A program made the position numbers and the translations under genes. DNA of 64,000 bases, taken from the NCBI GenBank assembly GCA_964577955.1, contig CAZOAZ010000023.1, positions 8,005 to 72,004 on the forward strand, read 5' to 3'. The stretch comes from an uncultured Bifidobacterium sp. (GTDB taxonomy: Bacteria; Acidobacteriota; Vicinamibacteria; Vicinamibacterales; CAVVIG01). Below the pieces are notes generated by a model that was not told where the DNA came from, did no database searches, and worked only from the letters and a program-made list of their open reading frames with translations. This document shows, in pieces, positions 17,143 through 42,306 of this stretch (the first letter of the stretch is position 1; every line of letters starts with the position of its first letter).

Positions 17143-18963
17143 TCAGACCCCCTGCAACGCCAGCGGCTCGGTCGTCGCCTTCACTTTGTAGAGCCAGTGG
17201 TCGTACAGCCAGTGTCGCGTGCGTGTCCCGAGGGTTTCGAAAAACGTGGATTGATCCGCGATGTCGAACACGCTCCGGCGGGTCAGCTCGCGCGCGAACG
17301 CGGGGCCTGACGGCAGATACGTGAAGTAGATCGGATTGTCGCGCACGCCGGCGGGCAGCGCCGCCGGATCCGGTCCGGTCCCCAGTTCACGACCGAGCTC
17401 GCGGACCGCCGCCGCAACCTTGTCGCCGGCGCCGATGCGCACGGCGTGAGCCGACGCCACCTGACCGAAGCGTTTCCAGGTCCACTCGTCGTTCGGCAGG
17501 TGGACGAACTCGCGGGCCAGGCGATCGCCTTCCGGCACGCGCGTGCACCAGTCGAAAATCCGCTGCAGCATCACGCCCTGATCGCAATAGCGGTTGTTCT
17601 GCTCGTCGTCCAGATAGCGCAGCTCCGCGATCGGTTTTGCGCCAAGCCGTGGACGGCGTAGTAGTGGATCCTCGACGAAGACGTCGGCGCTGAGCGCATC
17701 CTTGCGGCGGATGACGAAATCGTCGACGAGCGGATTGTGCTTCTCGCCGCGGGTGTGCTGCCGGACGACAGCTTCGATCGCGGCCGGACCGCCGGCGACG
17801 TGGCGCAGCACGCTTCGGCTGAAAAAGCGATCGTCGAGGTCGTCGTTCGATCCGGTATAGAGCTCGTACTTGCTGGCGATCGTGCCCATCGCGGTCCCAC
17901 CGTACGGAGCCAGGATCGACGTCCACCCCATCTCCGGCGCCAACCGCACGTTGAGTGCCAGCGTCTGCAGGTCGGTCTCGAGGTCGCTGAACGGCACCAT
18001 CAAGATCTGCTGCAGCCGCAGCGTCAGACCGCGCGCCTGAATCCGCTCGACACCTTCCTGGATCAGTTCGTCCGACATGCCGCGCTTCAGCACGTAGCGG
18101 CGCAGGAAGTCGTTGCCGGATTCGACCGCCAGCGTGATGCCGGTGCAACCGGCCTCGCGGAACAGGTCGAGCCGCTCGAGCCCGACATCGTGGCGCGTCA
18201 GCTCGAGGCGGATCTGACAGTGCCACGGCACGCCGATCTCTTCCTTCCAACGGCGCGCGAACTCCCGCAGCCACGGCACCTTGAAGCCGAAGATGTCGTC
18301 CTGGAAGTAGATCATCGACAGCGGATAGCGATCCCGCATCAACCGGGCTTCGGCAATCAGCTGTTCGACTGGACGCTCGTTTCCCTCGTAGCCGCCGTAC
18401 ATGTCGTTGTAGACCGGCGCGTAGCAGTACGAACACTCGAAGGGGCAGCCGACCGTCGCCATCATGCTCTTGATGGGACTGCGCGCGTAATCGGGAAAGG
18501 CGTCATACAGCAGACGCCGCGCCGGAACCGGAAAGCCCTCGGCCACCCGCACCGGATCGTGCTGCAGTCCGCGCGGCAGCTCGCCGGCAAGCAGCTTCCG
18601 GAAGAAACGAAACGCCTCGCCCTTGATCACCCAGTCGGCGTGCTTCGCGCAGTCCTCGGCAAAGTAGGTCGCGTGCGGGCCGCCGATCACGACATTCACG
18701 CCCATCTCACGGACGATGTCCGCGGCGCCAAACGCCTGGACGTGATAGCCGGTCCAGATCGAGAAACCCACCAGATCGGGCTGGAACGCCGCGACCTCGT
18801 CGAAGAGCGGCTGAAAATCGAAATCGCGAATCAGCACGGTCTTCGCGTCCCAGCCTTCGGCCTCGGCCAGGCCGAGCAGGTGCAGGATGCCGAGCGGTTC
18901 GATCGAATAATGACGGCCGACCAGAATCAGCCGCGGCTTCCGCCCATTTGGAGTTGTCATCAT
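17143..18963 (-). CDS. B12-binding domain radical SAM enzyme (class B), copy 1
   Basis: 606 aa. The N-terminal cobalamin-binding-like Rossmann region is RLILVGRHYSIEPLGILHL..PDLVGFSIWTG..VVIGGPHATY. The canonical cluster motif is GCPFECSYC (CX3CX2C). Confidence 0.88.
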   Translation of the reverse strand: MMTTPNGRKPRLILVGRHYSIEPLGILHLLGLAEAEGWDAKTVLIRDFDFQPLFDEVAAFQPDLVGFSIWTGYHVQAFGAADIVREMGVNVVIGGPHATYFAEDCAKHADWVIKGEAFRFFRKLLAGELPRGLQHDPVRVAEGFPVPARRLLYDAFPDYARSPIKSMMATVGCPFECSYCYAPVYNDMYGGYEGNERPVEQLIAEARLMRDRYPLSMIYFQDDIFGFKVPWLREFARRWKEEIGVPWHCQIRLELTRHDVGLERLDLFREAGCTGITLAVESGNDFLRRYVLKRGMSDELIQEGVERIQARGLTLRLQQILMVPFSDLETDLQTLALNVRLAPEMGWTSILAPYGGTAMGTIASKYELYTGSNDDLDDRFFSRSVLRHVAGGPAAIEAVVRQHTRGEKHNPLVDDFVIRRKDALSADVFVEDPLLRRPRLGAKPIAELRYLDDEQNNRYCDQGVMLQRIFDWCTRVPEGDRLAREFVHLPNDEWTWKRFGQVASAHAVRIGAGDKVAAAVRELGRELGTGPDPAALPAGVRDNPIYFTYLPSGPAFARELTRRSVFDIADQSTFFETLGTRTRHWLYDHWLYKVKATTEPLALQGV

Positions 18964-20072
18964 GTTCGCGCTACGAGGTCGCGCAGCACCGCCCGCTCGC
19001 GCTCGACCGCCACGGTCAGCGTGCAGTGCGTCTGCACGTAGGCCAGACCGGCCGCAGCCAGCCGCTCTCTGAGCGGCGCGTCTTCGAGCAGCCGGCGAAT
19101 CACGCTCCGCAGTTCATCTGCGGACGGTCCACTCAAGAGCCCATTGCTTCCGTCGGCGATGATCTCCTGAATCCCGCTCACCCGCGTCCCGACGACCGCC
19201 GCCCCCGACGCCATCGCCTCGACGAGCGCCTTCGGATTGCCCTCGTATTGCGACGGTAGCACGAAGACGCCGGTGCGACCGAGCAGGACGGGAAGATCGT
19301 CGTGCGCGACACGGCCGTGAAACTGCGCCTTCACACCGAGCGCCCGCGCCTGCTGTTCGAGCGCGGCGCGGCGCGACCCGTCGCCGACAATCGAGAGCTC
19401 GACGCCGGCCAGTCCAGCCAGCGCCTCGATCAGCACGTCGACGTTCTTCTCAGGCTCGAGCCGCCCGACGAACGTGACGCGGTTCGCCTCGCGCGGGACG
19501 TCGGACCGCAGCTTGAACTTGCGGGTGTCCACGTAGTTGGGCACGACCGTAATCACGTCCGGAGCAACGCCGTACCGCGCCGCCACCGCCGCGGCATGAC
19601 CTGCCGACGCGACGACGATGCGATCGGCGGAGCGGAAGACCTTGCGCTCGAGCGCGCGGCTGACGCGCCGCCGGAGCGGGCTGGTCGTCTCCCGTTCGAC
19701 GTTGTCGGCCCAGAGGAACCCGCAGCGAACCACCAGCGGGGTTCCAAACAGCCACTTGGCCACGACCGCGCACCAGCCGCCGTTGATCTGGTTCGTCCGG
19801 AGCGCCGACGCCGTGCGCAGGTACTTCCGGTGCAGCCAGGGCGCGAGCACACTGTAGAGATTCGACGGCAGATTCCAGACGTTCGGCAGCACGTCGAGCC
19901 GCGGCATCGCTTCGGCCACCCGCCCATCGTCACGCCCGCCGTAGGTGACAAAGGCCAGGCGATCCAGATCGGGCGAGAGCTCGCGATAGAGCGCCAGCTC
20001 GCGATCCAGGATGCCGGCGCGGCGCCAGCCTTCGAGCGACATGCCGCGGCTGAAGAACACGACCAGCGTCAT
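18960..20072 (-). CDS. Glycosyltransferase family 4
   Basis: The start is taken at MTLVVFFSRGMSLEGW (ATG 20072, ATGA overlap). Motif LPSQYEGNPKALVEAMASGAAVVGT. Confidence 0.85.
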   Translation of the reverse strand: MTLVVFFSRGMSLEGWRRAGILDRELALYRELSPDLDRLAFVTYGGRDDGRVAEAMPRLDVLPNVWNLPSNLYSVLAPWLHRKYLRTASALRTNQINGGWCAVVAKWLFGTPLVVRCGFLWADNVERETTSPLRRRVSRALERKVFRSADRIVVASAGHAAAVAARYGVAPDVITVVPNYVDTRKFKLRSDVPREANRVTFVGRLEPEKNVDVLIEALAGLAGVELSIVGDGSRRAALEQQARALGVKAQFHGRVAHDDLPVLLGRTGVFVLPSQYEGNPKALVEAMASGAAVVGTRVSGIQEIIADGSNGLLSGPSADELRSVIRRLLEDAPLRERLAAAGLAYVQTHCTLTVAVERERAVLRDLVART

Positions 20073-21619
20073 CGCTGCTGAGCCAGGGCAGGAGTGACGT
20101 ACGTCAGTCCCCAGGTGATGATGACGGCTGCCGCACAGAGGTGGTACACACCGTAGTAAGGGATGTTGCCACCCGAGTAGATCGCGACGGCCGTCAACGA
20201 CAGCGGCAACGAGAACACCAGAATCCGAAGGGCGATCCAGTCGCGCCGGAGCCACGCCACCAGGGCAAACGGCACCACGAGCAGGCCGCTGAACGGAATC
20301 ACGCCGCCAATCCCCGGGGTGAGCTGCACCATCACCGGAGTCGTCTCGCGGAGCACCCGCCACACGCGCCTGGCCAGAATGGAGACGTACCAGAATGGAT
20401 CGGCCGCGATGTCATGGAGCACCTTGTCGCGCATGACGTCGAGAAGGTGGGGCGTCTGCAGCGGATGGCGATAGTAGAGATGATCCGGATCGAAGTAGTC
20501 GTCCGGCGTTCGTGCCGGCTTCCGGGTTCCCCACCACCACGGCAGCTTCTCGCCGTACTGCTGTTCGAGCACCGGCTCCGCGTACGCGACCGCCAGGTCG
20601 TCCCGCCACGAGTAGCCGTGCGTGGTGTCGAAATCGCCGAGCCCGCTCCAGAGCGAACCCCAGAACTGGTGGCGAGCGGCGCGAGAGGCGTCGTAGACAT
20701 GCCCGCCGGCACGGCGCACGACCGCCGTGGCTTCCGTCCACTTGTGATCGAAATAGCTGCTCCATGCCCAGGAAGTTCCGGTAAAGGCGAGCCACAACAC
20801 GGCGATCAGTCCCACTCGCAGCGGCCACCCGAAACGCGGCGCGCCGAGGCAGACTGCCGCGACTCCCAGAATCGACACTGCGGCTTCGAACCGGATCTGG
20901 GCCGCGGTCGCGAGCACGAGCGCGCAGATGACAACGGCAAAGCCGGCGTACCACCGGCGGCACGTGCCGGTGATGACCGGCAGCATGAGCGCGAGGGTCA
21001 CGCAGAAGACGGCGATCGGCCAGCCGAAGATCTGCTCGCGTCGATACGCCTCGAACAACTGGAAGGGATTGGAGCCGAGCAGTCCAACCAGCACGAAGCC
21101 GAGAACCGGCAGACCGACGTACCAGAAACTGATCAGGAGACCGGCCAGCCCCAGGAAGAAGACGAGGCTCGTCGCGATCCGCATCTCGGCATTCTCAGGG
21201 GTGCCGCGCCGCCAGGCGTCAATCAGATACAGATAGGTCTGCAAGTCGCTGCCGAAGCGCGTCGTGTGGCCCCATTCCATGACCAGCGTCGAACCGCGCT
21301 CCGCGATCGTGCGTTCCGCGGCCTCGCGGCTGAAGACACGGCGGTCGGGGTCCTTCGGGTGCGCGGCGCCATCGAAGTAGAAGTCCGGATCGATCCCGGA
21401 GTCGAGCGTCGCCACCGGAAAGAGGTTGAGGTAGTACAGGAAGTAGACGAACTTTTCCTGCGAGTGCAGCCCGCTCGACGCCTTCAGCATGTAGTCCGAC
21501 GGCAACGGGGCGCGGAAGAGCATCAACTGCCAGACGGTCAAGCCGGCGAGACCGGCGAGCAGCAACGCGACGCTGCGCGGCGTTCGCCGACGAGGCGCCG
21601 CCGCCAGTTCCGTTCTCAT
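20069..21619 (-). CDS. Large polytopic membrane protein (Wzy/GT-C-like candidate, unknown)
   Basis: The start is taken at MRTELAAAPRRRT (ATG 21619, ATGA overlap). ~516 aa, with one N-terminal TM, a soluble segment, then many TM helices. No family motif recognised. Confidence 0.55.
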   Translation of the reverse strand: MRTELAAAPRRRTPRSVALLLAGLAGLTVWQLMLFRAPLPSDYMLKASSGLHSQEKFVYFLYYLNLFPVATLDSGIDPDFYFDGAAHPKDPDRRVFSREAAERTIAERGSTLVMEWGHTTRFGSDLQTYLYLIDAWRRGTPENAEMRIATSLVFFLGLAGLLISFWYVGLPVLGFVLVGLLGSNPFQLFEAYRREQIFGWPIAVFCVTLALMLPVITGTCRRWYAGFAVVICALVLATAAQIRFEAAVSILGVAAVCLGAPRFGWPLRVGLIAVLWLAFTGTSWAWSSYFDHKWTEATAVVRRAGGHVYDASRAARHQFWGSLWSGLGDFDTTHGYSWRDDLAVAYAEPVLEQQYGEKLPWWWGTRKPARTPDDYFDPDHLYYRHPLQTPHLLDVMRDKVLHDIAADPFWYVSILARRVWRVLRETTPVMVQLTPGIGGVIPFSGLLVVPFALVAWLRRDWIALRILVFSLPLSLTAVAIYSGGNIPYYGVYHLCAAAVIITWGLTYVTPALAQQR

Positions 21620-23198: not shown

Positions 23199-23218
23199 GG
23201 CGTCACCTTCAGGATCAT
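23195..23218 (-). other. 7-codon mini-ORF (MILKVTP*) with its own Shine-Dalgarno; its stop overlaps the GTG start of the GT2 gene
   Basis: AAGGAG (complement of 23223-23228) lies 4 nt upstream of the ATG at 23218. The TGA at 23197-23195 overlaps the GTG at 23198-23196 (GTGA). Confidence 0.4.
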
Positions 23219-24728: not shown

Positions 24729-25537
24729 CGCCGCTGGGCGACCGCGAGAATCATGTGGCTGATGTAGTCCGACGGCAGCACGGTGCCAAAGACTCGACTC
24801 GCCAGACGGTACGCCGTCGTTCCCTTGGTCTTCAGTCCCACTTCCCACTGGAGCCAGCGGCCGACGCCGGTGGCCTTGGCGATCGGCGCCACCTCGTGCA
24901 CCTTGAAGCCGCGCAGCTCGAGTTCGCGCCGCAGCTCTTCCCGCGTGAGCCGCCACTGGTAGAACCGTTGCGGCCGTTCGTAGCCGGACGCCGGATCGAA
25001 CTGATCGTCCCACCGTTCGAGCGCGGCGCGATCCCGCTTCATCAGCCGGCGGTTGTGGAATGGCACGCTCACGAAGAGCCAACCGCCCCTGCGGAGCAGG
25101 CGGCCGGCTTCGACAAGACAGTCGCCCAGTCCAGACTCGAAGTGCTCGAACGTCCCCCACGAGTAGTACGCGTCAAACGAGCCTGCGGCGAAATCGGTGT
25201 GCCGCAGATCGCCCTGACGGAAGTCGTGCTGGGGAAACCAGCTCTTGAGCCGCTCGATCGTCTCGGTGCTGATGTCGAGACCGGTCACCTGGTAGCCCCG
25301 ACCCGACAAGTACAGCGTCCACTCCCCGAGTCCGCAGCCGCCGTCGAGCAGATGGCTGCCGGCCGGCAATCGCTCGAGATAGGGCGCCACCACGCGGTAC
25401 TCATCGCTCTCGGCAACCGCGGACACGTCCGGCGGCCGCTGACGATCCTTCCAGAGCGCGCTCCAGTGCTGTTCGACGAACGCGGCTTCGTCGAGCGCGC
25501 CGGCGGCATCATCAACTGGAAGATAGTCTTTCCGCAC
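24725..25537 (-). CDS. Class I SAM-dependent methyltransferase
   Basis: Motifs LLDGGCGLGEW..VTGLDIS and FDAYYSWGTFEHF..LLRRGGWLFV. No in-frame ATG is available, so the start is assigned to the GTG at 25537, just below the upstream stop at 25548. Confidence 0.7.
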   Translation of the reverse strand: MRKDYLPVDDAAGALDEAAFVEQHWSALWKDRQRPPDVSAVAESDEYRVVAPYLERLPAGSHLLDGGCGLGEWTLYLSGRGYQVTGLDISTETIERLKSWFPQHDFRQGDLRHTDFAAGSFDAYYSWGTFEHFESGLGDCLVEAGRLLRRGGWLFVSVPFHNRRLMKRDRAALERWDDQFDPASGYERPQRFYQWRLTREELRRELELRGFKVHEVAPIAKATGVGRWLQWEVGLKTKGTTAYRLASRVFGTVLPSDYISHMILAVAQRR

Positions 25538-25547
25538 CGGCTGAGGC

Positions 25548-27337: not shown

Positions 27338-27352
27338 CAGTGGTAACGGTAG

Positions 27353-27372
27353 GGACAGGCTGCAGCCTGTCC
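27353..27372. promoter_or_regulatory. Perfect 20-nt palindrome / RNA hairpin in a 46-nt intergenic gap
   Basis: ggacaggc-tgca-gcctgtcc (8-bp stem, 4-nt loop) lies between the radical SAM stop (27384) and the next start (27337). No U-tract follows in either orientation. Confidence 0.5.
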
Positions 27373-27383
27373 GTCCAAAACAA

Positions 27384-35861: not shown

Positions 35862-36889
35862 GACGCCCGCACGACCTCTCGCGCCACCCGCGCCGCACCG
35901 TGACCGTCGACGAGCGTCCGGCCAGCCAGACTCTGCTTACGCCGCAGCCCTGAATCGGCCAGCAGCGCCGACACTGCGTTCTGTAACCGCTGGGCAAGGC
36001 CGGAGTCGTCAATCGATCCGGCGGATAGCGCCGTGCCGGCGCTGACGAAGCCGTGCAGCGTCGGCCGCTGGTTGTCGAACAGTTCCATCGCCACGGCGGG
36101 CGTGCCGGTCGCGGCCGCCTCGTACAACGTCTGCCCCGCGGCGCAGACGACGAGTTCGGCGTCGACCAGCAGCGGATGGAGCGATGGAGGACCGTCGACG
36201 ATCCGCACGACATGTCGAGATTCGAGTGGGACGGACCAGCCATCCGAAAACGGGCCGACGACGACGGTCATCGTGAAGGCGGCGGGCAGGGCGTCGAGCC
36301 ACTCGACGATTCTCGGCAGCAGACGATGCGGATCGCTGCCGCCGACGGCGACGAGAACCTGTGGCGACGCGGCCGCGGCCTGCCGTTCAGGCGGTTCGAC
36401 TTCGTACTCGGGCTGCAGCACCGCATACGCGGGTCCCAGGAGAAACTGTGTGGCCTCCGTCGTCGAACGGTACGGCACACGGTCGGCGCCGATCGCCCCG
36501 TTGATCAGCACGTCGGCCGGTGTCGGCGACGACGCCTGATCGTCGAACACGGTCAGCCTGCCCGCAGCATCCCGAACCGTCGCCAGGTCCGCAGCGCTCA
36601 GGCGATACGAATCGACGACAGCCATCCGAGCGCGTTCGTGGCGGATCACATTCACGGTCTGATCGACATCCTCGTGAGCGCCGAGCCGATCGAGTCCGGC
36701 CTCGAGCGCCACGAACCGGCAGCCGGCCGCGGCGGTGCGCTGACGCACGGTCTCGAAATCCGGAGCAAGGACCACGCTATCCATGTCACATCTGCCAAGG
36801 GCGCGCGCCAGCGCCAGCGAACGCTGCAGATGTCCCAGTCCAATACCCGGACCGGCGTCCACCCGCAGTACCGCCGTGAATCGTGTCAC
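35858..36889 (-). CDS. pseG: UDP-2,4-diacetamido-2,4,6-trideoxy-beta-L-altropyranose hydrolase (PseG)
   Basis: 343 aa. The N-terminal LRVDAGPGIGLGHLQRSLALARAL is the typical PseG opening (RADAS..IGxGHxMRCL). GT-B-like C-terminal half. Lies in pse gene context. Confidence 0.8.
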   Translation of the reverse strand: MTRFTAVLRVDAGPGIGLGHLQRSLALARALGRCDMDSVVLAPDFETVRQRTAAAGCRFVALEAGLDRLGAHEDVDQTVNVIRHERARMAVVDSYRLSAADLATVRDAAGRLTVFDDQASSPTPADVLINGAIGADRVPYRSTTEATQFLLGPAYAVLQPEYEVEPPERQAAAASPQVLVAVGGSDPHRLLPRIVEWLDALPAAFTMTVVVGPFSDGWSVPLESRHVVRIVDGPPSLHPLLVDAELVVCAAGQTLYEAAATGTPAVAMELFDNQRPTLHGFVSAGTALSAGSIDDSGLAQRLQNAVSALLADSGLRRKQSLAGRTLVDGHGAARVAREVVRAS

Positions 36890-37560
36890 CGCAGCGAGCG
36901 CACCAGTTCAAAGGCTTCGGCATACTGCACGCCCGCCGCCGCACCACGAGAACGAGCCAGCGCCCGCAGCGACTCCGGCGAACGCGGATGCGGTGCCGGC
37001 CGAGACTCGGAGCGGTAACGTTGCATCGCCTCGACTTTTTGCTCGATCGTCGCCGTGACGTCGACGAACACCGACGGCCGGAACACCGGGTCGACCCGCT
37101 GGAACGCCCACTCGGTCGACGAGGGCACTTCGAAGAGGTAAAGGTCCTTGACGCGGTGTGCGGCCGCACCAGGGCGCGTGGCCGTCAGCACCGCGCGAAA
37201 CGTCAGGCCGTGATCGATGTTCAGGTCGCCCGGATGGTGGGTATAGATGGCGTCCGGCCGGTACTCCTCGACCCATCCTTCGACGCGCTTCACGATGTCG
37301 AGGAGCGAGACCTCGTCGAAGCGATTGTCGGGTAGACCGCCGAAGGCGACCCCGCGGGCGCCGAGCACGGCCGCCGCGGCCCTGGCATCGGCGCGGAGTT
37401 CGTCGAGCGCGCTCTCGGCAACGCCGCTGCGTTCGGCGTGCCTCGAGCTCAACCCCTCGCCGAGGATCGCGATCTGGACCGAATGGTGCCCCGACTCGCG
37501 CGCCACCAACCCGCCGCAGCCAAGCACTTCGTCGTCTGGATGCGCCGCCACGATGAGCAT
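36886..37560 (-). CDS. PIG-L / LmbE-family N-deacetylase
   Basis: MLIVAAHPDDEVLGCGG (AHPDDE motif) and HHPGDLNIDH (zinc-ligand His cluster). The ATG at 37560 lies 2 nt below the upstream stop. Confidence 0.85.
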   Translation of the reverse strand: MLIVAAHPDDEVLGCGGLVARESGHHSVQIAILGEGLSSRHAERSGVAESALDELRADARAAAAVLGARGVAFGGLPDNRFDEVSLLDIVKRVEGWVEEYRPDAIYTHHPGDLNIDHGLTFRAVLTATRPGAAAHRVKDLYLFEVPSSTEWAFQRVDPVFRPSVFVDVTATIEQKVEAMQRYRSESRPAPHPRSPESLRALARSRGAAAGVQYAEAFELVRSLR

Positions 37561-37562
37561 GT

Positions 37563-38753
37563 TCACGATGGTGACCCGTCCTTCGCGGGCGTGAGGCGCA
37601 CCTGTGCACGCAGGACACCGCCGTCCAGCGATGCGCCGGTGAACTCGCAACGTGCGCCGCCGATGTCGGTATAGGCGTGCGGATAGCCCTCGGCATCGAG
37701 CATCCGGATGAAGTCGTAGAGTTCGTCGATGCTCGCGCTGTCCGGTAGCCGGCTCTCAGCCGGGGTGCGGCGGCGGAATTCCACAACGTCGCCGGACTGC
37801 GGCTCCGGCACTGGCTGTTCGTCGAGAATGCGGCCGACCATCCTCGCCGCCAGTTCGGACGCACGAACGTAGATGTCTTGCGCGCTGCCGTCGAGCGCGA
37901 GCGGCGCCTTGAGATAGATCGGCCCGGCGTCCAGCTCCTCGCTCAAGCGGAACGCGCTCAGCACGGTCGTCCGGTGGCCGCGCAGGATCAGGTTCTGCAG
38001 CGGCGATCCGCCGCGGCCGTACGGCAGATCGGTCATGTGGAAGCCGACGCATTCGAAGCCGTTGACGATCTCGGCCGGCACCTTCCACGACCAGTGGACG
38101 AAGAAGATGTAGCGCGGTCCATGCGATCGGACGAGCGTCGCGAGGCTGTCGGGATTGTCGACAAGGATCCAGCGTCCCGGACGGTCGGCGAGGCATCGAT
38201 CGAAGACCTCGCGATTCCACGCCCCGCGAGCGGCGACCAGATAGCACTCACTCACATCCGGCCTCAGCCTGGTGCCGCTGCCGCTCTGGCGTTCGCGGCG
38301 TTCGAGACGGATCGCGGGATGGCCGGCAACCGTTTCCTCCCCCGTCGCGACGAATCCCGCCTGCTCGAACGTCCGCAGCGAAGCGCGATTCTCCGGCTTC
38401 ACGCGGGCGACGATGGCGACACGGGGATGGCGGCGCTGTAGCTGCACGCTGGCTTCGCGCAGCATCGTAACGCCGAGTCCGCGCTGCCGGCACGCCGGCG
38501 CCACGCTGATATCGACTTCTGCCTCACCGCCGCTTCGATCGAAGCGGATCTGGCCGACCGCGACGCCGTTCTCTTCAGCGACAAACATCTCGCAGTCGCT
38601 CGCCTGAAGTCGGCCGGCAAACCACCGTTGATGATCGGCCCAGGTGATTGGCTCGGACTGGAACGCCGAGGCGCGAGTCACCGAATCGTTAACCCACTCC
38701 CAGAGCAGCCGCGCATCGGCCGCGGTCGCGCGCCGCAGCGTGAGTGCGCTCAC
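37563..38753 (-). CDS. pseH: Fusion: PseH-like GNAT N-acetyltransferase + formyltransferase-like domain
   Basis: The N-terminal ~150 aa are GNAT (LRRATAADARLLWEWVNDSVTR..VGQIRFD..RQRGLGVTML). The C-terminal ~230 aa are Formyl_trans_N-like (FVHWSWKVPAEIV..GFHMTDLPYGRGGSPLQNLI..EELDAGPIY). GTG start with GTGA overlap with pseI. Confidence 0.7.
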   Translation of the reverse strand: MSALTLRRATAADARLLWEWVNDSVTRASAFQSEPITWADHQRWFAGRLQASDCEMFVAEENGVAVGQIRFDRSGGEAEVDISVAPACRQRGLGVTMLREASVQLQRRHPRVAIVARVKPENRASLRTFEQAGFVATGEETVAGHPAIRLERRERQSGSGTRLRPDVSECYLVAARGAWNREVFDRCLADRPGRWILVDNPDSLATLVRSHGPRYIFFVHWSWKVPAEIVNGFECVGFHMTDLPYGRGGSPLQNLILRGHRTTVLSAFRLSEELDAGPIYLKAPLALDGSAQDIYVRASELAARMVGRILDEQPVPEPQSGDVVEFRRRTPAESRLPDSASIDELYDFIRMLDAEGYPHAYTDIGGARCEFTGASLDGGVLRAQVRLTPAKDGSPS

Positions 38754-39796
38754 GAAATGTCGTCCTGCTGGACCGGCGCGTCGCTCGCAATCGCGCGTTT
38801 CGCGTAGCGGCCGAGCACGCCGGGGAAAGCGGACGGCGGCAGCCCCGGATGGTTCTTGCCCTGGCGGAGAACCGCGATGTTATCGCGGCTGAATACTTCC
38901 CCGGCGGCGATCGCCCGGGTGGCGAAGACGCTGCGGCGGGCGAAGGCACGGAGCTCGTCCTCCACCGGATCGACGACCTTCTCGCCGCTGCCGCGCACCA
39001 GTTCGGCCTGGCGGATTCGCGTCACCATCTCGCGCAATTCATGCGGTTCGAGCGCAAAGCGATGGTCGGGGCCGGCGAGCGCGTTGCTCAGCGTGAAGTG
39101 TTTCTCGATGATCGACGCGCCGCACGCGACTGCGGCCACCGGCGCGACGATCGGATCGCGGGAGTGATCGGAGAGCCCGACCGGCACCTGGAATCGATCC
39201 GCCAGCGTCACCAGGGCGCGCACGTTGATCGACGCGATCGGCGCCGGATAGGCCGCTGTGCACTGCAGCAGCGCCAGTTCGCGGTTGCCCGCCTCGCGGC
39301 AGGTGGCGACCGCTTCTTCCACTTCGGCGAGGTTCGAGGTGCCCGTCGACAGAATCATCGACGTGCCCTTCGCCGCGACATGGCGCAGCAACGGTGCATG
39401 GGTCATCTCGTAGGAGGCAATCTTGAAGGTCTCGACGTACGGATCCAGCCGATCGGCCGACTCCTCATCGAATGGCGTCGCGAGAAAGTGAACCGACCGC
39501 GCGCGGCAGTGGTCGGAAAGGACCGGCAGCCACTCGTACGGCATCTCCATCGCGGCGATGATGTCGACGATTGGCGTCGGTACCTTGAGGTAGTCGCTGA
39601 CGCCGGCACTCCTCGGATACATCCGCGCCGCCCGGAAGACCTGGAATTTCACGGCATCGGCGCCGGCGTCAGCCGCGACATCGATGAGCTGCCGGGCCAT
39701 CTGCAGATCGCGATTGTGGTTGCTGCCGGCTTCGGCGATGACATACACCGGATGCGCCGGGCCGACGTGGCGGTCGCCGATCCGGATCCCTGGCAT
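38750..39796 (-). CDS. pseI: Pseudaminic acid synthase (NeuB family with SAF domain)
   Basis: The start is taken at MPGIRIGDRHVGPAHPVYVIAEAGSNHN (ATG 39796, TGATG overlap with pseF). Motifs GLSDHS and EKHFTL..GPDH, plus a C-terminal SAF-like RSVFATRAIAAGEVF. Confidence 0.85.
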   Translation of the reverse strand: MPGIRIGDRHVGPAHPVYVIAEAGSNHNRDLQMARQLIDVAADAGADAVKFQVFRAARMYPRSAGVSDYLKVPTPIVDIIAAMEMPYEWLPVLSDHCRARSVHFLATPFDEESADRLDPYVETFKIASYEMTHAPLLRHVAAKGTSMILSTGTSNLAEVEEAVATCREAGNRELALLQCTAAYPAPIASINVRALVTLADRFQVPVGLSDHSRDPIVAPVAAVACGASIIEKHFTLSNALAGPDHRFALEPHELREMVTRIRQAELVRGSGEKVVDPVEDELRAFARRSVFATRAIAAGEVFSRDNIAVLRQGKNHPGLPPSAFPGVLGRYAKRAIASDAPVQQDDIS

Positions 39797-40524
39797 CACG
39801 CTTCGGCCGCCTGCATCGCGCGCAAGTAGTGCTCGGCCTGGCGGGCCTGGTCCGGGTAGTCGACCTCCAGCGAATACTTGTCGTCGTCCTGAACGAGGAG
39901 ATGCAGCCGCTCGCCGAACCACGCGTGCAGGGCGCGGTTGCCATCGGTGGCTTCGAGTGTCGACACGCGGACGCCGTAGACCGCGCCGTCCATCGCGAAG
40001 ATCTTCGGGTAGTCCTGAGTCCTGAAACCACGATCCGAGTTCATGAACGGCTCACAGGCGCCGGTCGCAGGATCGGTGATGACCTTCGCCCACTCGGGCC
40101 GGAAGCGCAGTTGCTGCGCCGTGCACACCGCGGTCGCCTCCGGAGTCCGTTCGAGTCGCGCGATGACTTCGTCGATCTGGCCGGTTTTCCGGATCGGAAC
40201 GTTGCCTTGCATCGTGATGGCGAGATCGGCGTGAAAACCGTCTCGGCTGGCAAGCAACCGCACGACCTGACGGATCGCATCGTCGAGCGCCGCGGTATCG
40301 GACGCGAGTTCGGCGGGACGCGGCACGAACTCGACGCCATACGCGCGGGCCAGTTCCTCGAGCGCGGGATCGTCCGACGACACCACCAGCCGATCGAGGC
40401 GCTTCGCGTCGAGCGCGGCTTCGAGCGTATACGCAAACATCGGCTTGCCGCAGAGCCGCGCGAGATGTTTGTCCGGAAACCTCAGGCTGCCTTTACGCCC
40501 GGGAATGATGCCGACGGTTTTCAT
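39796..40524 (-). CDS. pseF: Pseudaminic acid cytidylyltransferase (CMP-sugar synthetase family)
   Basis: 242 aa. The opening MKTVGIIPGRKGSLRFPDKHLARLCGKPM is typical of CTP_transf_3 family enzymes. Adjacent to pseI. Confidence 0.8.
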   Translation of the reverse strand: MKTVGIIPGRKGSLRFPDKHLARLCGKPMFAYTLEAALDAKRLDRLVVSSDDPALEELARAYGVEFVPRPAELASDTAALDDAIRQVVRLLASRDGFHADLAITMQGNVPIRKTGQIDEVIARLERTPEATAVCTAQQLRFRPEWAKVITDPATGACEPFMNSDRGFRTQDYPKIFAMDGAVYGVRVSTLEATDGNRALHAWFGERLHLLVQDDDKYSLEVDYPDQARQAEHYLRAMQAAEA

Positions 40525-40554: not shown

Positions 40555-42306
40555 CTAGACGTCCGCACGCGTGGCGCCGCGCACCCGCTCCGGGCGTTCC
40601 TGGACCTCGCCGGTGTGAGGATGGCGAACGGTGTTCTGCGCCCCGAGTGAATTGATGGCCTGCCAGGACAGTTCAACGACCTCCTCGTCAGGCAAGTCGC
40701 TGAAATTGGTGCGAACGTTTTCGCCCTGTTCGCCCAGTTTCAAGAAGTACTGTTCGATGATGTCTTCGTCCGCCGGCCCCTTCACCCCGGTCACCGCCTT
40801 GGCGATCAGACCGCGATCGAGTGCGAGCTGCCAGAATGCCGTGGCCGGATACGCCGTCGTGAAGAAGAAGACCTCCGGCTTGAGGTTGACGCGGTTGCAG
40901 AACTCCACCGTTTCACGAACGGTGTCGGCGGTTTCGCCCGGAGAACCAATCATGAACGAGCAGTCGGCGTAGCCCAGGACGCGCTGCGTCTCGCTGATCG
41001 CCAGCTCCATCTTTTCGATGGTCTGGCCGCTCTTGTCGATCTCCTTGAGCACGGTCGGACTGCCCGACTCAATCCCGTAGCCGGCTTGTCGCATGCCGAC
41101 GTCGTACGCCTGTTCGAGCATGTGCGGCCGGCCTTCCTTCCGCGCTCTGATCACATCGTCGGCAATGATGTTGGTGCGGCAGGTGCCGCCCCAGAGCACT
41201 TCGAAGCCACTCCGCGCCCGCCGCTCGCGAAGTTCAGCACAAAGCTGCAGCGCCCACCGGTAGTCGGTCATCAACAGATCGTCGAGGAAGTGCACGTAGG
41301 CCGCGCCGTAGTGCTCGACCAGAAACTGCATCTCGTCGACCACTTCCTTCGGACTGCGGAGCCGGTACTGCGCGCCGAGATACGCGGCGTAGCAGTAGTC
41401 GCACGCCTTGCCGGCATAGGGGCACCCGCGTGACGCGATCATCGACATACTGAACTGGCCGGGCTCGGTCGACGCACCGTCCTTCCACTTGCTCTTCCAA
41501 TTGAGATGCCCGACCGGATTTCGCTTGTAGACCTCTTCCTCCGGCCAGCGGCCGCGCAGCGGCCAGGGCAGGTGATCGAGGCCGCGCCGTTGCGCCTGCA
41601 CCGACGGCCGGTGGCCGTTGTCGCGGATATCGAAATCGCCGGGCCGAAGTTCGTGCCGATAGGCGATTCCCTTGACCGACGCCAGCGACCCGCGTTCCTC
41701 CAGACAGTGAAGCACTTCGGAGAACGTGACCTCGCCCTCCTCCTGCACGGCAATGTCGATCGGCAGGCGCCGAAGCATGAATTCGGGGGCGGATGACGCG
41801 ATGCCACCGCCGAGAATGATCGGCACATCGGGACAGAGCTTTCGGCAGAGTTCCGTGATGGCGCGGATGCGGCCATACTGCGTGATGATCCCGCCGATAC
41901 CGATCACATCGGGTTTTTGCTCGGAGAGTTTTTCGGTGATGCGCCGCTCGATCCAGGCGTTGAAGTCCGACGCCGGCTGCTTCACCGGGCCGCCGCGTTC
42001 GGCATTCAGATCGAGCACGTCGACCTGGTGTCCGTCCATGGCCGCTACGGCGCCGACGTAGCCCTGACCGATCGGCATGATGTTCGGAAAGGACCACTCG
42101 CGAATCGGCGCATTGATGAACAGCACACGCAGGCCGCGCGCCCTCGGCGTGAAGGCCCGCACGGATTCCTCAGTCGTAATGCGCGGCCACGAGTCGCTCA
42201 GCACCGAGCCGCCTGTATCGAAGCGCTGATGAAAGCGCGCCGGCGGCGGGCCGGAAACCGGCTGGCCGGCTCCGGCGAGAGGAAGAATCGTCTTGCCGCC
42301 ACTCAT
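40555..42306 (-). CDS. B12-binding domain radical SAM enzyme, copy 3, with non-canonical Cys spacing
   Basis: 583 aa. The B12-like region is RVLFINAPIREWSFPNIMPIGQGYV..PDVIGIGGI..PIILGGGIA. The cluster region RGCPYAGKACDYC (codons at 41424-41392) has CX6CX2C spacing instead of CX3CX2C. Confidence 0.8.
   Translation of the reverse strand: MSGGKTILPLAGAGQPVSGPPPARFHQRFDTGGSVLSDSWPRITTEESVRAFTPRARGLRVLFINAPIREWSFPNIMPIGQGYVGAVAAMDGHQVDVLDLNAERGGPVKQPASDFNAWIERRITEKLSEQKPDVIGIGGIITQYGRIRAITELCRKLCPDVPIILGGGIASSAPEFMLRRLPIDIAVQEEGEVTFSEVLHCLEERGSLASVKGIAYRHELRPGDFDIRDNGHRPSVQAQRRGLDHLPWPLRGRWPEEEVYKRNPVGHLNWKSKWKDGASTEPGQFSMSMIASRGCPYAGKACDYCYAAYLGAQYRLRSPKEVVDEMQFLVEHYGAAYVHFLDDLLMTDYRWALQLCAELRERRARSGFEVLWGGTCRTNIIADDVIRARKEGRPHMLEQAYDVGMRQAGYGIESGSPTVLKEIDKSGQTIEKMELAISETQRVLGYADCSFMIGSPGETADTVRETVEFCNRVNLKPEVFFFTTAYPATAFWQLALDRGLIAKAVTGVKGPADEDIIEQYFLKLGEQGENVRTNFSDLPDEEVVELSWQAINSLGAQNTVRHPHTGEVQERPERVRGATRADV

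What the first reader, a model, noticed from the sequence alone, without database searches (positions are those of the whole stretch)
17143..42306. Three paralogous-class B12-binding radical SAM enzymes inside one polysaccharide locus
The genes at 17143-18963, 27384-29486 and 40555-42306 each combine an N-terminal cobalamin-binding-like Rossmann region with a radical SAM core. Class B radical SAM enzymes are known mainly from antibiotic, bacteriochlorophyll and hopanoid tailoring, where they methylate unactivated carbon or phosphorus (for example GenK, Fom3, TsrM). They are not standard parts of surface-glycan loci. Three in one operon, together with four ordinary SAM methyltransferases, suggests C-methylation or other radical chemistry on sugars that has not been described for cell-surface glycans.
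Basis: partly seen in the sequence, partly recalled or inferred. Interest (0 to 1): 0.78.

Follow-up and report, generated by a model that had tools for sequence, protein, structure and literature searches.

The report
B12-radical SAM enzymes in sugar operons
Three unrelated cobalamin-type radical SAM enzymes sit inside a giant cell-surface sugar locus, and each keeps sugar-pathway neighbours in distant microbes, one as a near-fixed extra gene of the pseudaminic acid operon, which points to an undescribed radical modification of surface sugars.

Summary
ORFs 17143-18963, 27384-29486 and 40555-42306 (all minus strand) each carry PF02310 plus PF04055 above Pfam cut-offs. They sit in a roughly 52-gene glycan locus with four class-I methyltransferases.

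They are about 23% identical to each other, so they are three separate class-B families. None reaches any NCBIfam cut-off.

- **rSAM3 (40555-42306):** lies between equivalog-grade PseB/PseC and a cytidylyltransferase. Orthologs are 64-79% identical in more than 15 phyla, including CPR bacteria, DPANN archaea and a cultured cyanobacterium. Of 24 loci with at least 15 kb, 24 carry NeuB, 21 PseB, 21 PseG and 19 PseC. Its cluster motif is Cx6Cx2C, and it has no close solved relative.
- **rSAM2:** is a homolog of the C-methylases TokK and CysS (E about 1e-53). It travels with a SAF-less NeuB, a cytidylyltransferase and an ABC exporter.
- **rSAM1:** is closest to the sugar diol-dehydratase AprD4. 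It sits in glycan loci in 29 of 39 relatives.

No paper found links radical SAM enzymes with nonulosonic acids. A 2026 preprint reports unexplained carbon-extended CMP-ulosonic acids.

The chemistry remains inferred: C-methylation is likeliest for rSAM2, plausible for rSAM3, and open for rSAM1. I class this as a new variant of a known kind, interest about 0.7.

The parts
40555..42306 (-). rSAM3: orphan class-B radical SAM enzyme (583 aa) with a Cx6Cx2C cluster motif, embedded in the Pse operon between PseC and a cytidylyltransferase.
   Evidence: Pfam PF02310 plus PF04055. No NCBIfam cut-off is met. Orthologs are 64-79% identical across more than 15 phyla with conserved Pse synteny. AF2 model pLDDT 82; closest fold is TsrM, TM about 0.6. 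Its ATG lies 8 nt after the PseC stop.
27384..29486 (-). rSAM2: TokK/CysS/KedN5-related class-B radical SAM enzyme (700 aa), a putative cobalamin-dependent C-methyltransferase.
   Evidence: Pfam. KedN5 182 bits, cut-off 700. Profile against PDB: TokK 8.7e-54, CysS 1.6e-52. Conserved sugar/NeuB contexts. Its ATG overlaps the ABC exporter stop as ATGA.
17143..18963 (-). rSAM1: AprD4/HpnJ-like class-B-architecture radical SAM enzyme (606 aa), the last gene of the operon.
   Evidence: Pfam. HpnJ 65 bits and AprD4 58 bits, far below cut-offs. Profile against PDB: AprD4 3.9e-17. AF2 pLDDT 95.5; best fold match AprD4, TMt 0.66. Its ATG overlaps the GT4 stop. Context survey.
43507..44511 (-). PseB, UDP-GlcNAc 4,6-dehydratase (inverting).
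   Evidence: NCBIfam TIGR03589 498 bits, above the cut-off of 407.75; Pfam Polysacc_synt_2.
42314..43627 (-). PseC, C4 aminotransferase.
   Evidence: NCBIfam TIGR03588 470.8 bits, above the cut-off of 423.5; Pfam DegT_DnrJ_EryC1.
39796..40524 (-). CMPt_1: divergent cytidylyltransferase immediately downstream of rSAM3.
   Evidence: Pfam CTP_transf_3. PseF 90 bits, below the cut-off of 205.7. It follows rSAM3 directly in 11 other loci, with 56-62% identity in five of them.
38750..39922 (-). NeuB/PseI-type nonulosonic acid synthase with a SAF domain.
   Evidence: Pfam NeuB plus SAF. NeuB 338.9 bits (cut-off 399.65) and PseI 283.8 bits (cut-off 340.25).
37563..38753 (-). Fusion of a GNAT (PseH-like) domain and a formyltransferase-like domain.
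   Evidence: Pfam Acetyltransf_3, Formyl_trans_C_2 and Formyl_trans_N. PseH 31.9 bits, below the cut-off of 93.1.
36886..37650 (-). PIG-L family de-N-acetylase.
   Evidence: Pfam PF02585 79 bits. The same deacetylase plus formyltransferase pair was reported for the Ca. Kuenenia NulO cluster.
35858..36889 (-). PseG-like UDP-sugar hydrolase.
   Evidence: NCBIfam TIGR03590 146.5 bits, cut-off 153.55.
34599..35861 (-). unk420: soluble orphan protein conserved next to PseG and NeuB.
   Evidence: No Pfam, NCBIfam or PDB hit. No TM segments. Orthologs in L008-L012, L015, L016, L041 and L104.
33931..34602 (-). CMPt_2: second nucleotidyl/cytidylyltransferase.
   Evidence: Pfam CTP_transf_3 and NTP_transf_3. 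74% identical ortholog in L104.
32680..33927 (-). unk415: soluble orphan protein of the second cassette.
   Evidence: No family hit. Orthologs in L104, L013 and L016.
31964..32674 (-). SAF-less short NeuB-family synthase (236 aa).
   Evidence: Pfam NeuB residues 21-234 of 236. The ortholog has the same length in L104; Nitrosopumilus has a 277-aa version.
31344..32036 (-). Small GT2 glycosyltransferase of the second cassette.
   Evidence: Pfam Glycos_transf_2. 76% identical ortholog in L104.
29483..31363 (-). MsbA/HepA-like fused ABC exporter directly upstream of rSAM2.
   Evidence: Pfam ABC_membrane plus ABC_tran. HepA_fam 418 bits and MsbA 395 bits. An ABC exporter lies directly upstream of rSAM1-family genes in 10 loci.
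26378..27472 (-). unk364: soluble orphan protein downstream of rSAM2. The listed N-terminus is probably over-extended.
   Evidence: No family hit. 64% identical ortholog adjacent to rSAM2 in L104.
25548..26381 (-). PhyH-family Fe(II)/2-oxoglutarate dioxygenase.
   Evidence: Pfam PF05721. Ortholog after the ABC exporter in L104.
18960..20363 (-). GT4 glycosyltransferase translationally coupled to rSAM1.
   Evidence: Pfam Glycos_transf_1 and Glyco_trans_4. Stop/start overlap.
14031..15206 (-). GT9 (heptosyltransferase family) gene near rSAM1.
   Evidence: Pfam Glyco_transf_9. GT9 is also adjacent to rSAM1 orthologs in L042, L054 and L071.
24725..25927 (-). Class-I SAM methyltransferase, one of four in the locus. 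The others are 12164-13255, 46908-47876 and 55601-56362.
   Evidence: Pfam Methyltransf_11/23/25.

Best explanation
The three genes are dedicated sugar-tailoring enzymes from three different class-B (B12-domain) radical SAM families. Each was recruited into a nucleotide-sugar or ulosonic-acid pathway of one very large surface-glycan locus.

**Cassette A (44511 down to 35858).** This is a pseudaminic-acid-type pathway: PseB, PseC, a GNAT, PseG, a NeuB/PseI-type synthase and a cytidylyltransferase. It also has a PIG-L deacetylase and a formyltransferase domain that could swap N-acyl groups. rSAM3 is an extra, conserved step.

The proposed mechanism for rSAM3 follows established class-B chemistry. 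Its [4Fe-4S] cluster (Cx6Cx2C) cleaves SAM to a 5'-deoxyadenosyl radical. That radical abstracts a hydrogen from an unactivated C-H of a Pse intermediate, or of Pse or CMP-Pse. Most likely methylcobalamin then delivers a methyl group, giving a C-methylated or carbon-extended 5,7-diamino-ulosonic acid. The unusually conserved partner cytidylyltransferase would then activate it.

**Cassette B (35861 down to 25548).** This encodes a SAF-less NeuB, a second nucleotidyltransferase, a small GT2, an ABC exporter, three orphan proteins and a PhyH dioxygenase. It would make a second ulosonic-type sugar. rSAM2, a TokK/CysS-like enzyme, would C-methylate it, possibly more than once.

**rSAM1.** It is coupled to a GT4 gene at the operon end and resembles AprD4 and HpnJ. 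It most likely performs a non-methylating radical reaction on a sugar, such as dehydration/deoxygenation or ring rearrangement.

**Shown:** domain architecture, operon coupling, conserved synteny across phyla, homology to TokK/CysS and to AprD4.
**Inferred:** substrates, the position attacked, cobalamin use, and methyl transfer.
For: - Architecture.
- Operon coupling: ATGA overlaps and an 8-nt spacer.
- PseB and PseC pass their equivalog cut-offs.
- rSAM3: 34 genome loci in more than 15 phyla at 64-77% identity. The typical order is PseB-PseC-rSAM3-cytidylyltransferase-NeuB-PseG on one strand. Among 24 loci of at least 15 kb, 24 have NeuB, 21 PseB, 21 PseG and 19 PseC.
- rSAM3 is a discrete family. 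Scores run 977 and 633 bits, then fall to 278 bits or less among full-length proteins. Inteins are inserted inside its cluster motif.
- The cytidylyltransferase after rSAM3 is 56-62% identical in phyla where the other Pse genes are only 22-50% identical. It fails the PseF cut-off.
- rSAM2: TokK 8.7e-54, CysS 1.6e-52, KedN5 182 bits. A syntenic module is found in L104, with NeuB contexts in Nitrosopumilus and in Tara marine contigs.
- rSAM1: AprD4 is the best match by sequence profile and by fold. It has heptose-type neighbours in L042, and 29 of 39 loci have glycan genes.
- Nine of the 110 fetched loci carry two or more class-B genes.
- A 2026 preprint reports CMP-ulosonic acids with an extra backbone carbon and CH2-spaced masses, with no gene assigned.
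Against: - No biochemical data exist for any of the three families.
- Class-B enzymes also catalyse non-methylating reactions (OxsB, BchE, HpnJ), and AprD4 is a dehydratase, so methylation cannot be read from the fold.
- rSAM3 has no near relative of known function. Its best fold match, TsrM, shares only 20% identity.
- The sister locus L104 runs the same Pse genes without rSAM3. Its NeuB is 58% identical to the window's. Downstream enzymes therefore show no obvious specialisation to a modified substrate, and rSAM3 is an optional decoration.
- rSAM1 orthologs occur outside glycan loci in a minority of cases: Stellaceae L005/L006, L048, and 10 of 39 loci without any glycan hit.
- The genome scan found no rSAM3 ortholog in Magnetospirillum. 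The link to the reported C10 ulosonic acids is therefore only an analogy.
Confidence: 0.72

Rival explanations
1. The enzymes act on sugars but not as methylases. rSAM3 and/or rSAM1 would carry out radical epimerisation, 1,2-diol or amino-alcohol elimination (like AprD4 or DesII, for example on the PseC product UDP-4-amino-4,6-dideoxy-L-AltNAc), or ring contraction or carbocycle formation (like HpnJ or calditol synthase). The products would be new stereoisomers or deoxy or carbocyclic derivatives, not C-methyl sugars.
For: - rSAM1's best sequence and fold match is the diol dehydratase AprD4, and its best NCBIfam hit is HpnJ.
- rSAM3 matches TsrM, OxsB, MgmA and AprD4 about equally weakly.
- The order PseB-PseC-rSAM3 mirrors the desosamine order dehydratase-aminotransferase-DesII (own knowledge).
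- rSAM1 orthologs in Stellaceae sit next to a Gfo/Idh/MocA oxidoreductase, as would suit a dehydratase-reductase pair.
Against: - Most characterised class-B enzymes are methylases (reviews found).
- rSAM2 is clearly in the TokK/CysS methylase clade.
- Loci with rSAM3 still keep a complete canonical Pse enzyme set including a GNAT (17 of 24). That fits a decoration better than a rerouted pathway.
Confidence: 0.3
2. The radical SAM enzymes modify a non-sugar part of the glycoconjugate. Candidates are the N-acyl substituent of the nonulosonic acid (for example extending acetyl to propionyl or branched acyl), the lipid carrier, or an acceptor protein.
For: - TokK and CysS, the relatives of rSAM2, build alkyl chains by repeated methylation of a small substituent (names; chemistry from the papers listed).
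- The locus has a FabH-like gene, an MBOAT, a GDSL protein, a GNAT and a formyltransferase.
- ABC exporters sit directly upstream of class-B genes in 11 loci.
Against: - rSAM3's tight pairing is with PseC and the cytidylyltransferase, not with acyl-handling genes.
- FabH, MBOAT and GDSL genes are not conserved near orthologs.
Confidence: 0.15
3. The co-location is incidental. The three genes would serve unrelated housekeeping, lipid, cofactor or RiPP pathways and merely lie within a large gene island.
For: - Public automatic names call them 'anaerobic Mg-protoporphyrin IX monomethyl ester cyclase' or 'YgiQ'.
- Some rSAM1 orthologs lack glycan neighbours.
Against: - BchE scores 29-85 bits against a cut-off of 481; lipid and RiPP families are also far below their cut-offs.
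- All three genes are translationally coupled to glycan genes.
- Synteny is conserved across Bacteria and Archaea for rSAM3 and rSAM2.
Confidence: 0.03

Closest known systems
TokK / ThnK / CysS / KedN5-type cobalamin-dependent radical SAM C-methyltransferases (antibiotic pathways)
   Same: rSAM2 shares the B12 Rossmann domain plus radical SAM core over about 410 residues. TokK scores E 8.7e-54 and CysS 1.6e-52; KedN5 is its best NCBIfam hit. It has the canonical CX3CX2C motif.
   Different: It scores 182 bits against the KedN5 cut-off of 700. The C-terminal roughly 230 residues are unmatched. Its context is NeuB, cytidylyltransferase and ABC exporter genes or other sugar genes, not carbapenem, cystobactamid or enediyne clusters. 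The substrate is unknown.
AprD4 (radical SAM 1,2-diol dehydratase of apramycin biosynthesis; PDB 6fd2)
   Same: It is the best sequence-profile match (3.9e-17) and best fold match (TMt 0.66) for rSAM1. It acts on a sugar ring and has a B12-like N-terminal domain followed by a radical SAM core.
   Different: Identity is only about 20%. NCBIfam AprD4 scores 58.5 bits against a cut-off of 500. rSAM1 is about 150 residues longer, with a helical C-terminal domain. It lies in glycosyltransferase, heptose or ABC-exporter contexts, not aminoglycoside clusters.
HpnJ (hopanoid cyclitol-ether formation) and calditol synthase: radical SAM enzymes that reshape a sugar head group on a lipid
   Same: HpnJ is the top NCBIfam hit for rSAM1 (65 bits) and a high-ranking hit for rSAM3 (84.5 bits, third). 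Both known enzymes perform radical chemistry on a sugar attached to an envelope molecule (own knowledge; for calditol).
   Different: Scores are far below the 577.6 cut-off. There are no hopanoid or GDGT genes nearby.
GenK / GenD1 / Fom3-type class-B methylases acting on sugar-like carbons in antibiotic pathways
   Different: No specific sequence relationship was tested. They belong to secondary metabolism, whereas here the enzymes are fixed parts of surface-glycan precursor operons in many phyla.
Canonical pseudaminic acid pathway (PseB, C, H, G, I, F of Campylobacter and Helicobacter)
   Same: PseB and PseC meet their equivalog cut-offs. PseG, a NeuB/PseI-type synthase, a GNAT and a cytidylyltransferase are present in the same operon.
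   Different: The operon contains an additional class-B radical SAM gene. PseH, PseG, PseI and PseF all fall below their equivalog cut-offs. PIG-L and formyltransferase functions are added.
TsrM (PDB 6wte), best structural neighbour of rSAM3
   Same: It has the same three-domain class-B architecture. Foldseek gives E 8e-23 and TM about 0.6.
   Different: Identity is 20% with rmsd 5.6-7.4 A. TsrM is a non-radical tryptophan methylase of a thiopeptide pathway. rSAM3 has a Cx6Cx2C motif, a conserved 58-residue N-terminal extension and an invariant NPVGHLNW loop.

Membership tests
Class B (cobalamin-domain) radical SAM enzymes | N-terminal B12-binding Rossmann domain (PF02310). | tested here: met
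   All three are above the gathering score: 45.6, 38.4 and 60.1 bits against 32.1. Models superpose on TsrM, OxsB, TokK and AprD4.
Class B (cobalamin-domain) radical SAM enzymes | Radical SAM core with three cysteines for the [4Fe-4S] cluster (canonical CX3CX2C). | tested here: met
   PF04055 scores are above the cut-off for all three. rSAM1 and rSAM2 have CX3CX2C. rSAM3 has an invariant Cx6Cx2C (C295/C302/C305) instead. The three cysteines are present but the spacing is atypical.
Class B (cobalamin-domain) radical SAM enzymes | Actual binding and use of cobalamin. | not testable with these tools
   This needs purified protein. From own knowledge, AprD4, the nearest relative of rSAM1, has the same fold without using cobalamin.
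KedN5/TokK/CysS methylcobalamin-dependent C-methyltransferases (rSAM2) | NCBIfam NF033712 score at or above 700. | tested here: not met
   182.5 bits. It is nevertheless a clear homolog of TokK and CysS at E about 1e-53. It is related to the family but not a member of the named subfamily.
AprD4 family radical SAM diol-dehydratase (rSAM1) | NCBIfam NF033070 score at or above 500. | tested here: not met
   58.5 bits. AprD4 is the best PDB match, at only about 20% identity.
HpnJ | NCBIfam TIGR03471 score at or above 577.6. | tested here: not met
   65.1 bits (rSAM1), 31.8 bits (rSAM2) and 84.5 bits (rSAM3).
BchE (anaerobic Mg-protoporphyrin IX monomethyl ester cyclase), the name given by JGI annotation | NCBIfam TIGR02026 score at or above 481.35. 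| tested here: not met
   29.2, 41.4 and 85.4 bits. There are no photosynthesis genes in the window.
Pseudaminic acid pathway (context of rSAM3) | PseB and PseC equivalogs. | tested here: met
   498 bits against 407.75, and 470.8 bits against 423.5.
Pseudaminic acid pathway (context of rSAM3) | PseH, PseG, PseI and PseF equivalogs. | tested here: not met
   PseH 31.9 bits against 93.1, PseG 146.5 against 153.55, PseI 283.8 against 340.25, PseF 90.1 against 205.7. Homologous functions are present but divergent.
Pseudaminic acid pathway (context of rSAM3) | The product is Pse5Ac7Ac or a derivative of it. | not testable with these tools
   This needs DMB-labelling LC-MS or NMR of the sugar.

The most novel reading that the evidence does not exclude
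Cobalamin-dependent radical C-methylation is a widespread, unrecognised way of diversifying prokaryotic surface sugars. rSAM3, together with its partner cytidylyltransferase, and the TokK-like rSAM2 would convert pseudaminic-type and related ulosonic acids into C-methylated, carbon-extended (C10 or longer) CMP-ulosonic acids. These are the kind of 'higher-carbon ulosonic acids' just detected by mass spectrometry with no gene assigned. That would define a new sugar class made in more than 15 bacterial and archaeal phyla, and it would tie cell-surface composition to B12 availability.
Probability: 0.35. Interest if true: 0.85.

Novelty: new variant of a known kind. Interest (0 to 1): 0.72.

Why it matters
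Nonulosonic acids cap flagella, S-layers, capsules and LPS. They govern phage and immune recognition. Their known diversity comes from stereochemistry and from N- and O-substituents.

A conserved radical SAM step inside the Pse operon would add carbon-skeleton editing to that repertoire. The enzyme is 64-79% identical from Rokubacteria to Cytophagales, CPR bacteria and DPANN archaea, and is important enough to host inteins in its cluster motif.

It would also give class-B radical SAM enzymology its first primary-metabolism sugar substrates. It offers candidate genes for the unexplained carbon-extended CMP-ulosonic acids reported in 2026. It implies that surface glycan structure in many uncultured lineages depends on cobalamin supply.

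The finding corrects widespread misannotation of these proteins as BchE or YgiQ. The cultured cyanobacterium Lusitaniella coriacea LEGE 07167 makes the question directly testable.

Tried and rejected
- **Source contig.** I could not identify it. The three proteins are singletons from one unnamed 88-kb NCBI contig, and exact look-ups failed. The Rokubacteria/Methylomirabilota origin is inferred only from best hits.
- **ORF clustering.** Single-linkage clustering of all ORFs around rSAM3 was spoiled by antisense shadow ORFs in these high-GC genomes. My crude gene calling in the closest rSAM1 loci failed for the same reason. I used tblastn/phmmer with window proteins instead.
- **Orphan proteins.** Pfam at E up to 1, NCBIfam and PDB sequence searches found nothing for unk420, unk415, unk364, unk604 or unk659.
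- **Plasmids.** The collection holds no close rSAM3 ortholog, only relatives at 23-29% identity.
- **Viral contigs.** There is no rSAM3 relative, and only distant rSAM2 relatives at 28-39% identity.
- **AFDB fold library.** It was unavailable.
- **Nearest outgroups of rSAM3.** These are 36-55% identical and are also unnamed class-B proteins, so they gave no functional lead.
- **Literature.** Searches combining radical SAM, cobalamin or B12 with pseudaminic, legionaminic, nonulosonic, NeuB or surface-glycan terms gave no relevant paper. The one apparent NeuB/B12 hit was the author name Neubauer.
- **Ideas considered and set aside.** I dropped the idea that the ABC exporter next to rSAM2 is a cobalamin importer of the Rv1819c/BacA type, because it scores as an MsbA/HepA-type exporter. 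I rejected pseudogene status for the 236-aa NeuB, because the same length is conserved in L104.

Full report
**1. The observation**

The window has 66% GC. Nearly all real genes lie on the minus strand, forming one continuous array of about 52 genes.

Each combines an N-terminal PF02310 B12-binding domain with a PF04055 radical SAM core, and all six domain hits are above Pfam's gathering scores.

The cluster-binding motifs are CX3CX2C in the 606-aa protein (rSAM1, C173/177/180) and in the 700-aa protein (rSAM2, C209/213/216). The 583-aa protein (rSAM3) has Cx6Cx2C (C295/302/305). No other radical SAM gene was found in the locus.

The four 'ordinary' methyltransferases are also real.

The three proteins are only about 23% identical to each other over partial alignments. 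They share a class, but they are three separate families and not recent paralogs.

**2. The locus**

Pfam and NCBIfam scans define a very large surface-glycan locus. It contains:
- many GT2, GT4 and GT9 glycosyltransferases and two PMT_2-type (GT-C) genes;
- a Wzx-like flippase;
- an MBOAT plus AlgX-like O-acetylation pair;
- two AsnB amidotransferases, a carbamoyltransferase, and sugar dehydratases/epimerases.

*Cassette A (44511 down to 35858):*
- PseB, 498 bits against a cut-off of 408;
- PseC, 471 bits against 423.5;
- rSAM3;
- a cytidylyltransferase, CMPt_1;
- a NeuB/PseI-type synthase with a SAF domain;
- a GNAT-formyltransferase fusion;
- a PIG-L deacetylase;
- PseG.

Only PseB and PseC reach equivalog level. 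The PseH-, PseG-, PseI- and PseF-like proteins all fall below their cut-offs.

*Cassette B (35861 down to 25548):*
- an orphan 420-aa protein;
- a second nucleotidyltransferase;
- an orphan 415-aa protein;
- a 236-aa NeuB without a SAF domain;
- a small GT2;
- an MsbA/HepA-like ABC exporter;
- rSAM2;
- an orphan 364-aa protein;
- a PhyH dioxygenase.

rSAM1 is the last gene of the array, after a GT4 gene.

All three radical SAM genes are tightly coupled to their upstream neighbours. The GT4 stop overlaps the rSAM1 start (ATGA). The ABC exporter stop overlaps the rSAM2 start (ATGA). The PseC stop lies 8 nt before the rSAM3 start.

**3. rSAM3 is a conserved extra gene of Pse operons**

The protein search returned hundreds of full-length relatives at 70-79% identity. 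The sources include Rokubacteria, Anaerolineae, Cytophagales and Bathyarchaeia. A few are about 930 aa long because they carry an intein.

A scan of one genome per species found 34 loci at 64-77% identity. They come from:
- Rokubacteria/Methylomirabilota, Acidobacteriota, Nitrospiria and Omnitrophota;
- Planctomycetia, Chloroflexota, Verrucomicrobiota and Sericytochromatia;
- Alpha-, Gamma- and Deltaproteobacteria;
- a CPR bacterium (Giovannonibacteria) and a DPANN archaeon (Pacearchaeota);
- the cultured cyanobacterium Lusitaniella coriacea LEGE 07167.

Mapping the window's proteins onto these loci shows a recurrent same-strand order: PseB-PseC-rSAM3-cytidylyltransferase-NeuB-PseG. Among the 24 loci with at least 15 kb of sequence, 24 have NeuB, 21 PseB, 21 PseG, 19 PseC and 17 a GNAT. 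A Cytophagales MAG shows the same gene set by independent Pfam annotation.

In an exhaustive search of 1.84 billion cluster representatives, the family appears as one 50%-identity cluster (977 bits) plus one 55% relative (633 bits). Full-length proteins then drop to 40% identity or less and 278 bits or less. The nearest outgroups belong to no named family.

The inteins are inserted between Y304 and C305, which is inside the Fe-S motif. That fits this being the catalytic heart of the enzyme.

The cytidylyltransferase that follows rSAM3 is 56-62% identical even in phyla where PseC, NeuB and PseG are only 22-50% identical. rSAM3 and this enzyme therefore behave as a two-gene module.

The AF2 model (pLDDT 82) has the three-domain class-B architecture. 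No solved structure is close: TsrM is best at TM about 0.6 and 20% identity, followed by OxsB, MgmA, AprD4, CysS and TokK. Sequence-profile matches to the PDB are marginal.

**4. rSAM2 is a TokK/CysS-type enzyme that travels with ulosonic-acid and other sugar genes**

A profile of the family matches TokK (8.7e-54) and CysS (1.6e-52) across both the B12 and radical SAM domains. KedN5 is the best NCBIfam hit, at 182 bits against a cut-off of 700. All of these are methylcobalamin-dependent C-methyltransferases, and TokK and CysS methylate iteratively.

The contexts sampled were as follows.
- **L104 (67% identity).** This is a sister locus with almost the same gene order as the window: AsnB, HTH, transglutaminase-like, PseB, PseC, cytidylyltransferase, NeuB, PseG-GNAT, unk420, rSAM2, unk364, unk415, nucleotidyltransferase, short NeuB, GT2, ABC exporter, PhyH, unk604, GT4. 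It lacks rSAM3, the PIG-L/formyltransferase pair, and rSAM1 within the 22.1-kb stretch fetched, which ends just past the GT4 gene.
- **Nitrosopumilus sp. S6 (48%).** DegT, rSAM2, CTP_transf_3, a HAD phosphatase, a SAF-less NeuB and a SIS isomerase.
- **An abundant Tara Oceans lineage (49%).** PseB-like, formyltransferase, NeuB, DegT, CTP_transf_3, a Capsule_synth transferase, a methyltransferase and rSAM2.
- **Two lineages at 55% identity.** These sit in other sugar loci. One has TPP-dependent enzymes, a GHMP kinase, NUDIX and a GT4. The other has SIS, HAD, GT and Bac_transf genes.

All five contexts beyond the window, like the window itself, are sugar pathways. Three of the five include NeuB and a cytidylyltransferase.

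**5. rSAM1 resembles AprD4 and is mostly, but not always, in glycan loci**

The family profile matches the sugar 1,2-diol dehydratase AprD4 (3.9e-17). The high-confidence model (pLDDT 95.5) has AprD4 as its best fold match (TMt 0.66, about 20% identity), followed by MgmA and TsrM. HpnJ and AprD4 are its top NCBIfam hits, both far below their cut-offs.

A metagenome scan gave 62 loci. Of the 39 with at least 8 kb:
- 29 have at least one, and 22 at least two, homologs of the window's glycan genes;
- 7 have NeuB.

Across all 62 loci, including the shorter ones, 10 have an MsbA-like ABC exporter directly upstream.

One close relative lies between a GmhA-like SIS protein on one side and a PfkB kinase and a GT9 heptosyltransferase-family gene on the other. 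The window also has a GT9 gene about 2 kb away. A CPR genome has it between two GT4 genes.

There are exceptions. In a Stellaceae genome it lies next to a Gfo/Idh/MocA oxidoreductase and an MFS transporter, and one contig shows no sugar context at all.

**6. How it most likely works**

The following is shown: architecture, operon coupling, conserved synteny, and homology to TokK/CysS (rSAM2) and to AprD4 (rSAM1).

The mechanism below is inferred from established class-B chemistry. Each enzyme reductively cleaves SAM at its [4Fe-4S] cluster and abstracts a hydrogen from an unactivated sugar C-H.

- **rSAM2.** The likeliest outcome is methyl transfer from methylcobalamin, possibly repeated, onto the cassette-B ulosonic-type sugar. 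I put this at about 0.6.
- **rSAM3.** I consider C-methylation of a Pse intermediate, or of Pse or CMP-Pse, the single most likely reaction, at about 0.45. Epimerisation, elimination and rearrangement remain open.
- **rSAM1.** A non-methylating dehydration, deoxygenation or ring rearrangement is as likely as methylation.

L104 runs a very similar Pse gene set without rSAM3. rSAM3 is therefore an optional decoration module and not an obligatory pathway step. Its tight pairing with a divergent cytidylyltransferase suggests that it acts at or near the NulO/CMP-NulO stage, but this is weak evidence.

**7. Comparison with the literature**

Full-text searches combining radical SAM, cobalamin or B12 with pseudaminic, legionaminic, nonulosonic, NeuB or surface-glycan terms found nothing relevant. 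Two reviews of cobalamin-dependent radical SAM enzymes (2022 and December 2025) never mention polysaccharide, glycan, sialic or nonulosonic.

One preprint is suggestive (SugarBase, April 2026, doi 10.64898/2026.04.20.719630). [quoted passage not shown] No genes are assigned, and radical SAM and cobalamin are not mentioned.

The same preprint reports NulOs with free and formylated amines in Ca. Kuenenia, from a cluster with a deacetylase and a formyltransferase. That is the same pair as in cassette A.

The genome scan found no rSAM3 ortholog in Magnetospirillum. This is an analogy that motivates a test, and it is not evidence for the function.

**8. Verdict**

The proteins do not cluster with housekeeping, HemN-like or lipid families, and the neighbourhoods are conserved.

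The enzymes belong to a known superfamily, so the finding is not categorically new. However, three uncharacterised families fixed in surface-sugar operons across many phyla form a new variant of a known kind, and one of them is a near-universal add-on to a class of Pse operons. The finding has clear experimental handles.

Noticed in passing
Orthologs P0071, P0090, P0100, P0104 and P0108 of window 40555-42306: Some rSAM3 orthologs are about 930 aa because an intein with a LAGLIDADG_3 domain (PF14528) is inserted between Y304 and C305. This is inside the Cx6Cx2C iron-sulfur motif.
   Followed up: partly
window 31964-32674 (-): A 236-aa NeuB-family protein lacks the SAF domain. It is not a truncation artefact: the ortholog in L104 is also 236 aa, and Nitrosopumilus has a 277-aa SAF-less NeuB next to its rSAM2 ortholog. 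Its substrate is unknown.
   Followed up: partly
window 29483-31363 (-); loci L064, L067, L068, L072-L075, L078, L083, L089: An MsbA/HepA-like fused ABC exporter sits directly upstream of a class-B radical SAM gene. In the window it precedes rSAM2; in 10 metagenome loci it precedes an rSAM1-family gene. The recurring pairing with either family is unexplained.
   Followed up: partly
window 39796-40524 (-): The cytidylyltransferase downstream of rSAM3 is conserved at 56-62% identity in Cytophagales, Pseudomonadales, Omnitrophota and Planctomycetia loci. That is far more than the neighbouring Pse genes. It fails the PseF equivalog cut-off (90 bits against 206). It seems to form a mobile two-gene module with rSAM3.
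   Followed up: partly
window 34599-35861, 32680-33927, 26378-27472 (-): Three soluble proteins (420, 415 and 364 aa) are conserved with the cassettes in L104, L013 and L016. None has a Pfam, NCBIfam or PDB sequence match. They are candidate new transferases or pathway enzymes. The 364-aa ORF's N-terminus is probably over-extended into rSAM2.
   Followed up: partly
window 20069-21883, 52534-54513, 1392-2870 (-): Three polytopic membrane proteins (9-10 predicted TM segments) have no family hit. They could be polymerase-, ligase- or GT-C-like components of the glycan machinery.
   Followed up: no
window 15001-16896 (+) and spacer 16897-17142: The only clear plus-strand gene in the window is a carbamoyltransferase convergent with rSAM1. 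The 246-nt spacer holds a roughly 30-nt imperfect direct repeat (AATGCGCCACGnAGACAC...) and a long GC-rich hairpin.
   Followed up: no
L104 (ENA ERZ28612946 scaffold_133, 220 kb): This sister locus has nearly identical gene order to window 18960-48000. It lacks rSAM3, the PIG-L/formyltransferase pair, and, within the 22.1-kb stretch fetched, rSAM1. The gene after its GT4, cut off at the locus end, is a CmcI/Methyltransf_24-type methyltransferase where the window has rSAM1. The radical SAM genes behave as swappable modules.
   Followed up: partly
L111-L118 (IMG/VR contigs): TokK-like relatives of rSAM2 (28-39% identity) occur on contigs classed as viral. Two low-GC contigs have them next to DegT-type aminotransferase and SDR sugar genes. 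Whether these are real phages was not checked.
   Followed up: no
L107 (Azospirillum lipoferum 4B plasmid AZO_p6, NC_016588.1, 22100-23620): A distant class-B-like radical SAM gene (28% identity to rSAM3) lies in a cultured bacterium. It sits between GDP-L-fucose synthase and a glycosyltransferase on one side and a kinase and a NUDIX hydrolase on the other. This is another glycan-locus example.
   Followed up: no
L004 21169-22115; L009, L010, L033, L038, L041, L085, L100, L102: Nine of the 110 fetched loci carry two or three separate class-B radical SAM genes within about 20 kb of sugar genes. Multiple such enzymes per glycan locus is a recurring pattern, not a peculiarity of this window.
   Followed up: partly
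Public annotations of P0002-P0120, P0126-P0237 and P0260-P0360: JGI names for all three families ('anaerobic magnesium-protoporphyrin IX monomethyl ester cyclase', 'radical SAM superfamily enzyme YgiQ') are not supported. BchE scores 29-85 bits against a cut-off of 481.
   Followed up: yes
window 4051-6138 and 7832-9697 (-): Two full-length AsnB-type glutamine amidotransferases lie inside the glycan locus, and an ortholog sits at the start of L104. They may amidate uronic or ulosonic carboxylates or make acetamidino groups.
   Followed up: no
window 61523-62104 (-); L008, L012, L013, L015, L021, L037, L104: A small HTH_24/MarR-like regulator recurs near PseB and the ABC exporter in related loci. 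It may be a dedicated regulator of these cassettes.
   Followed up: no
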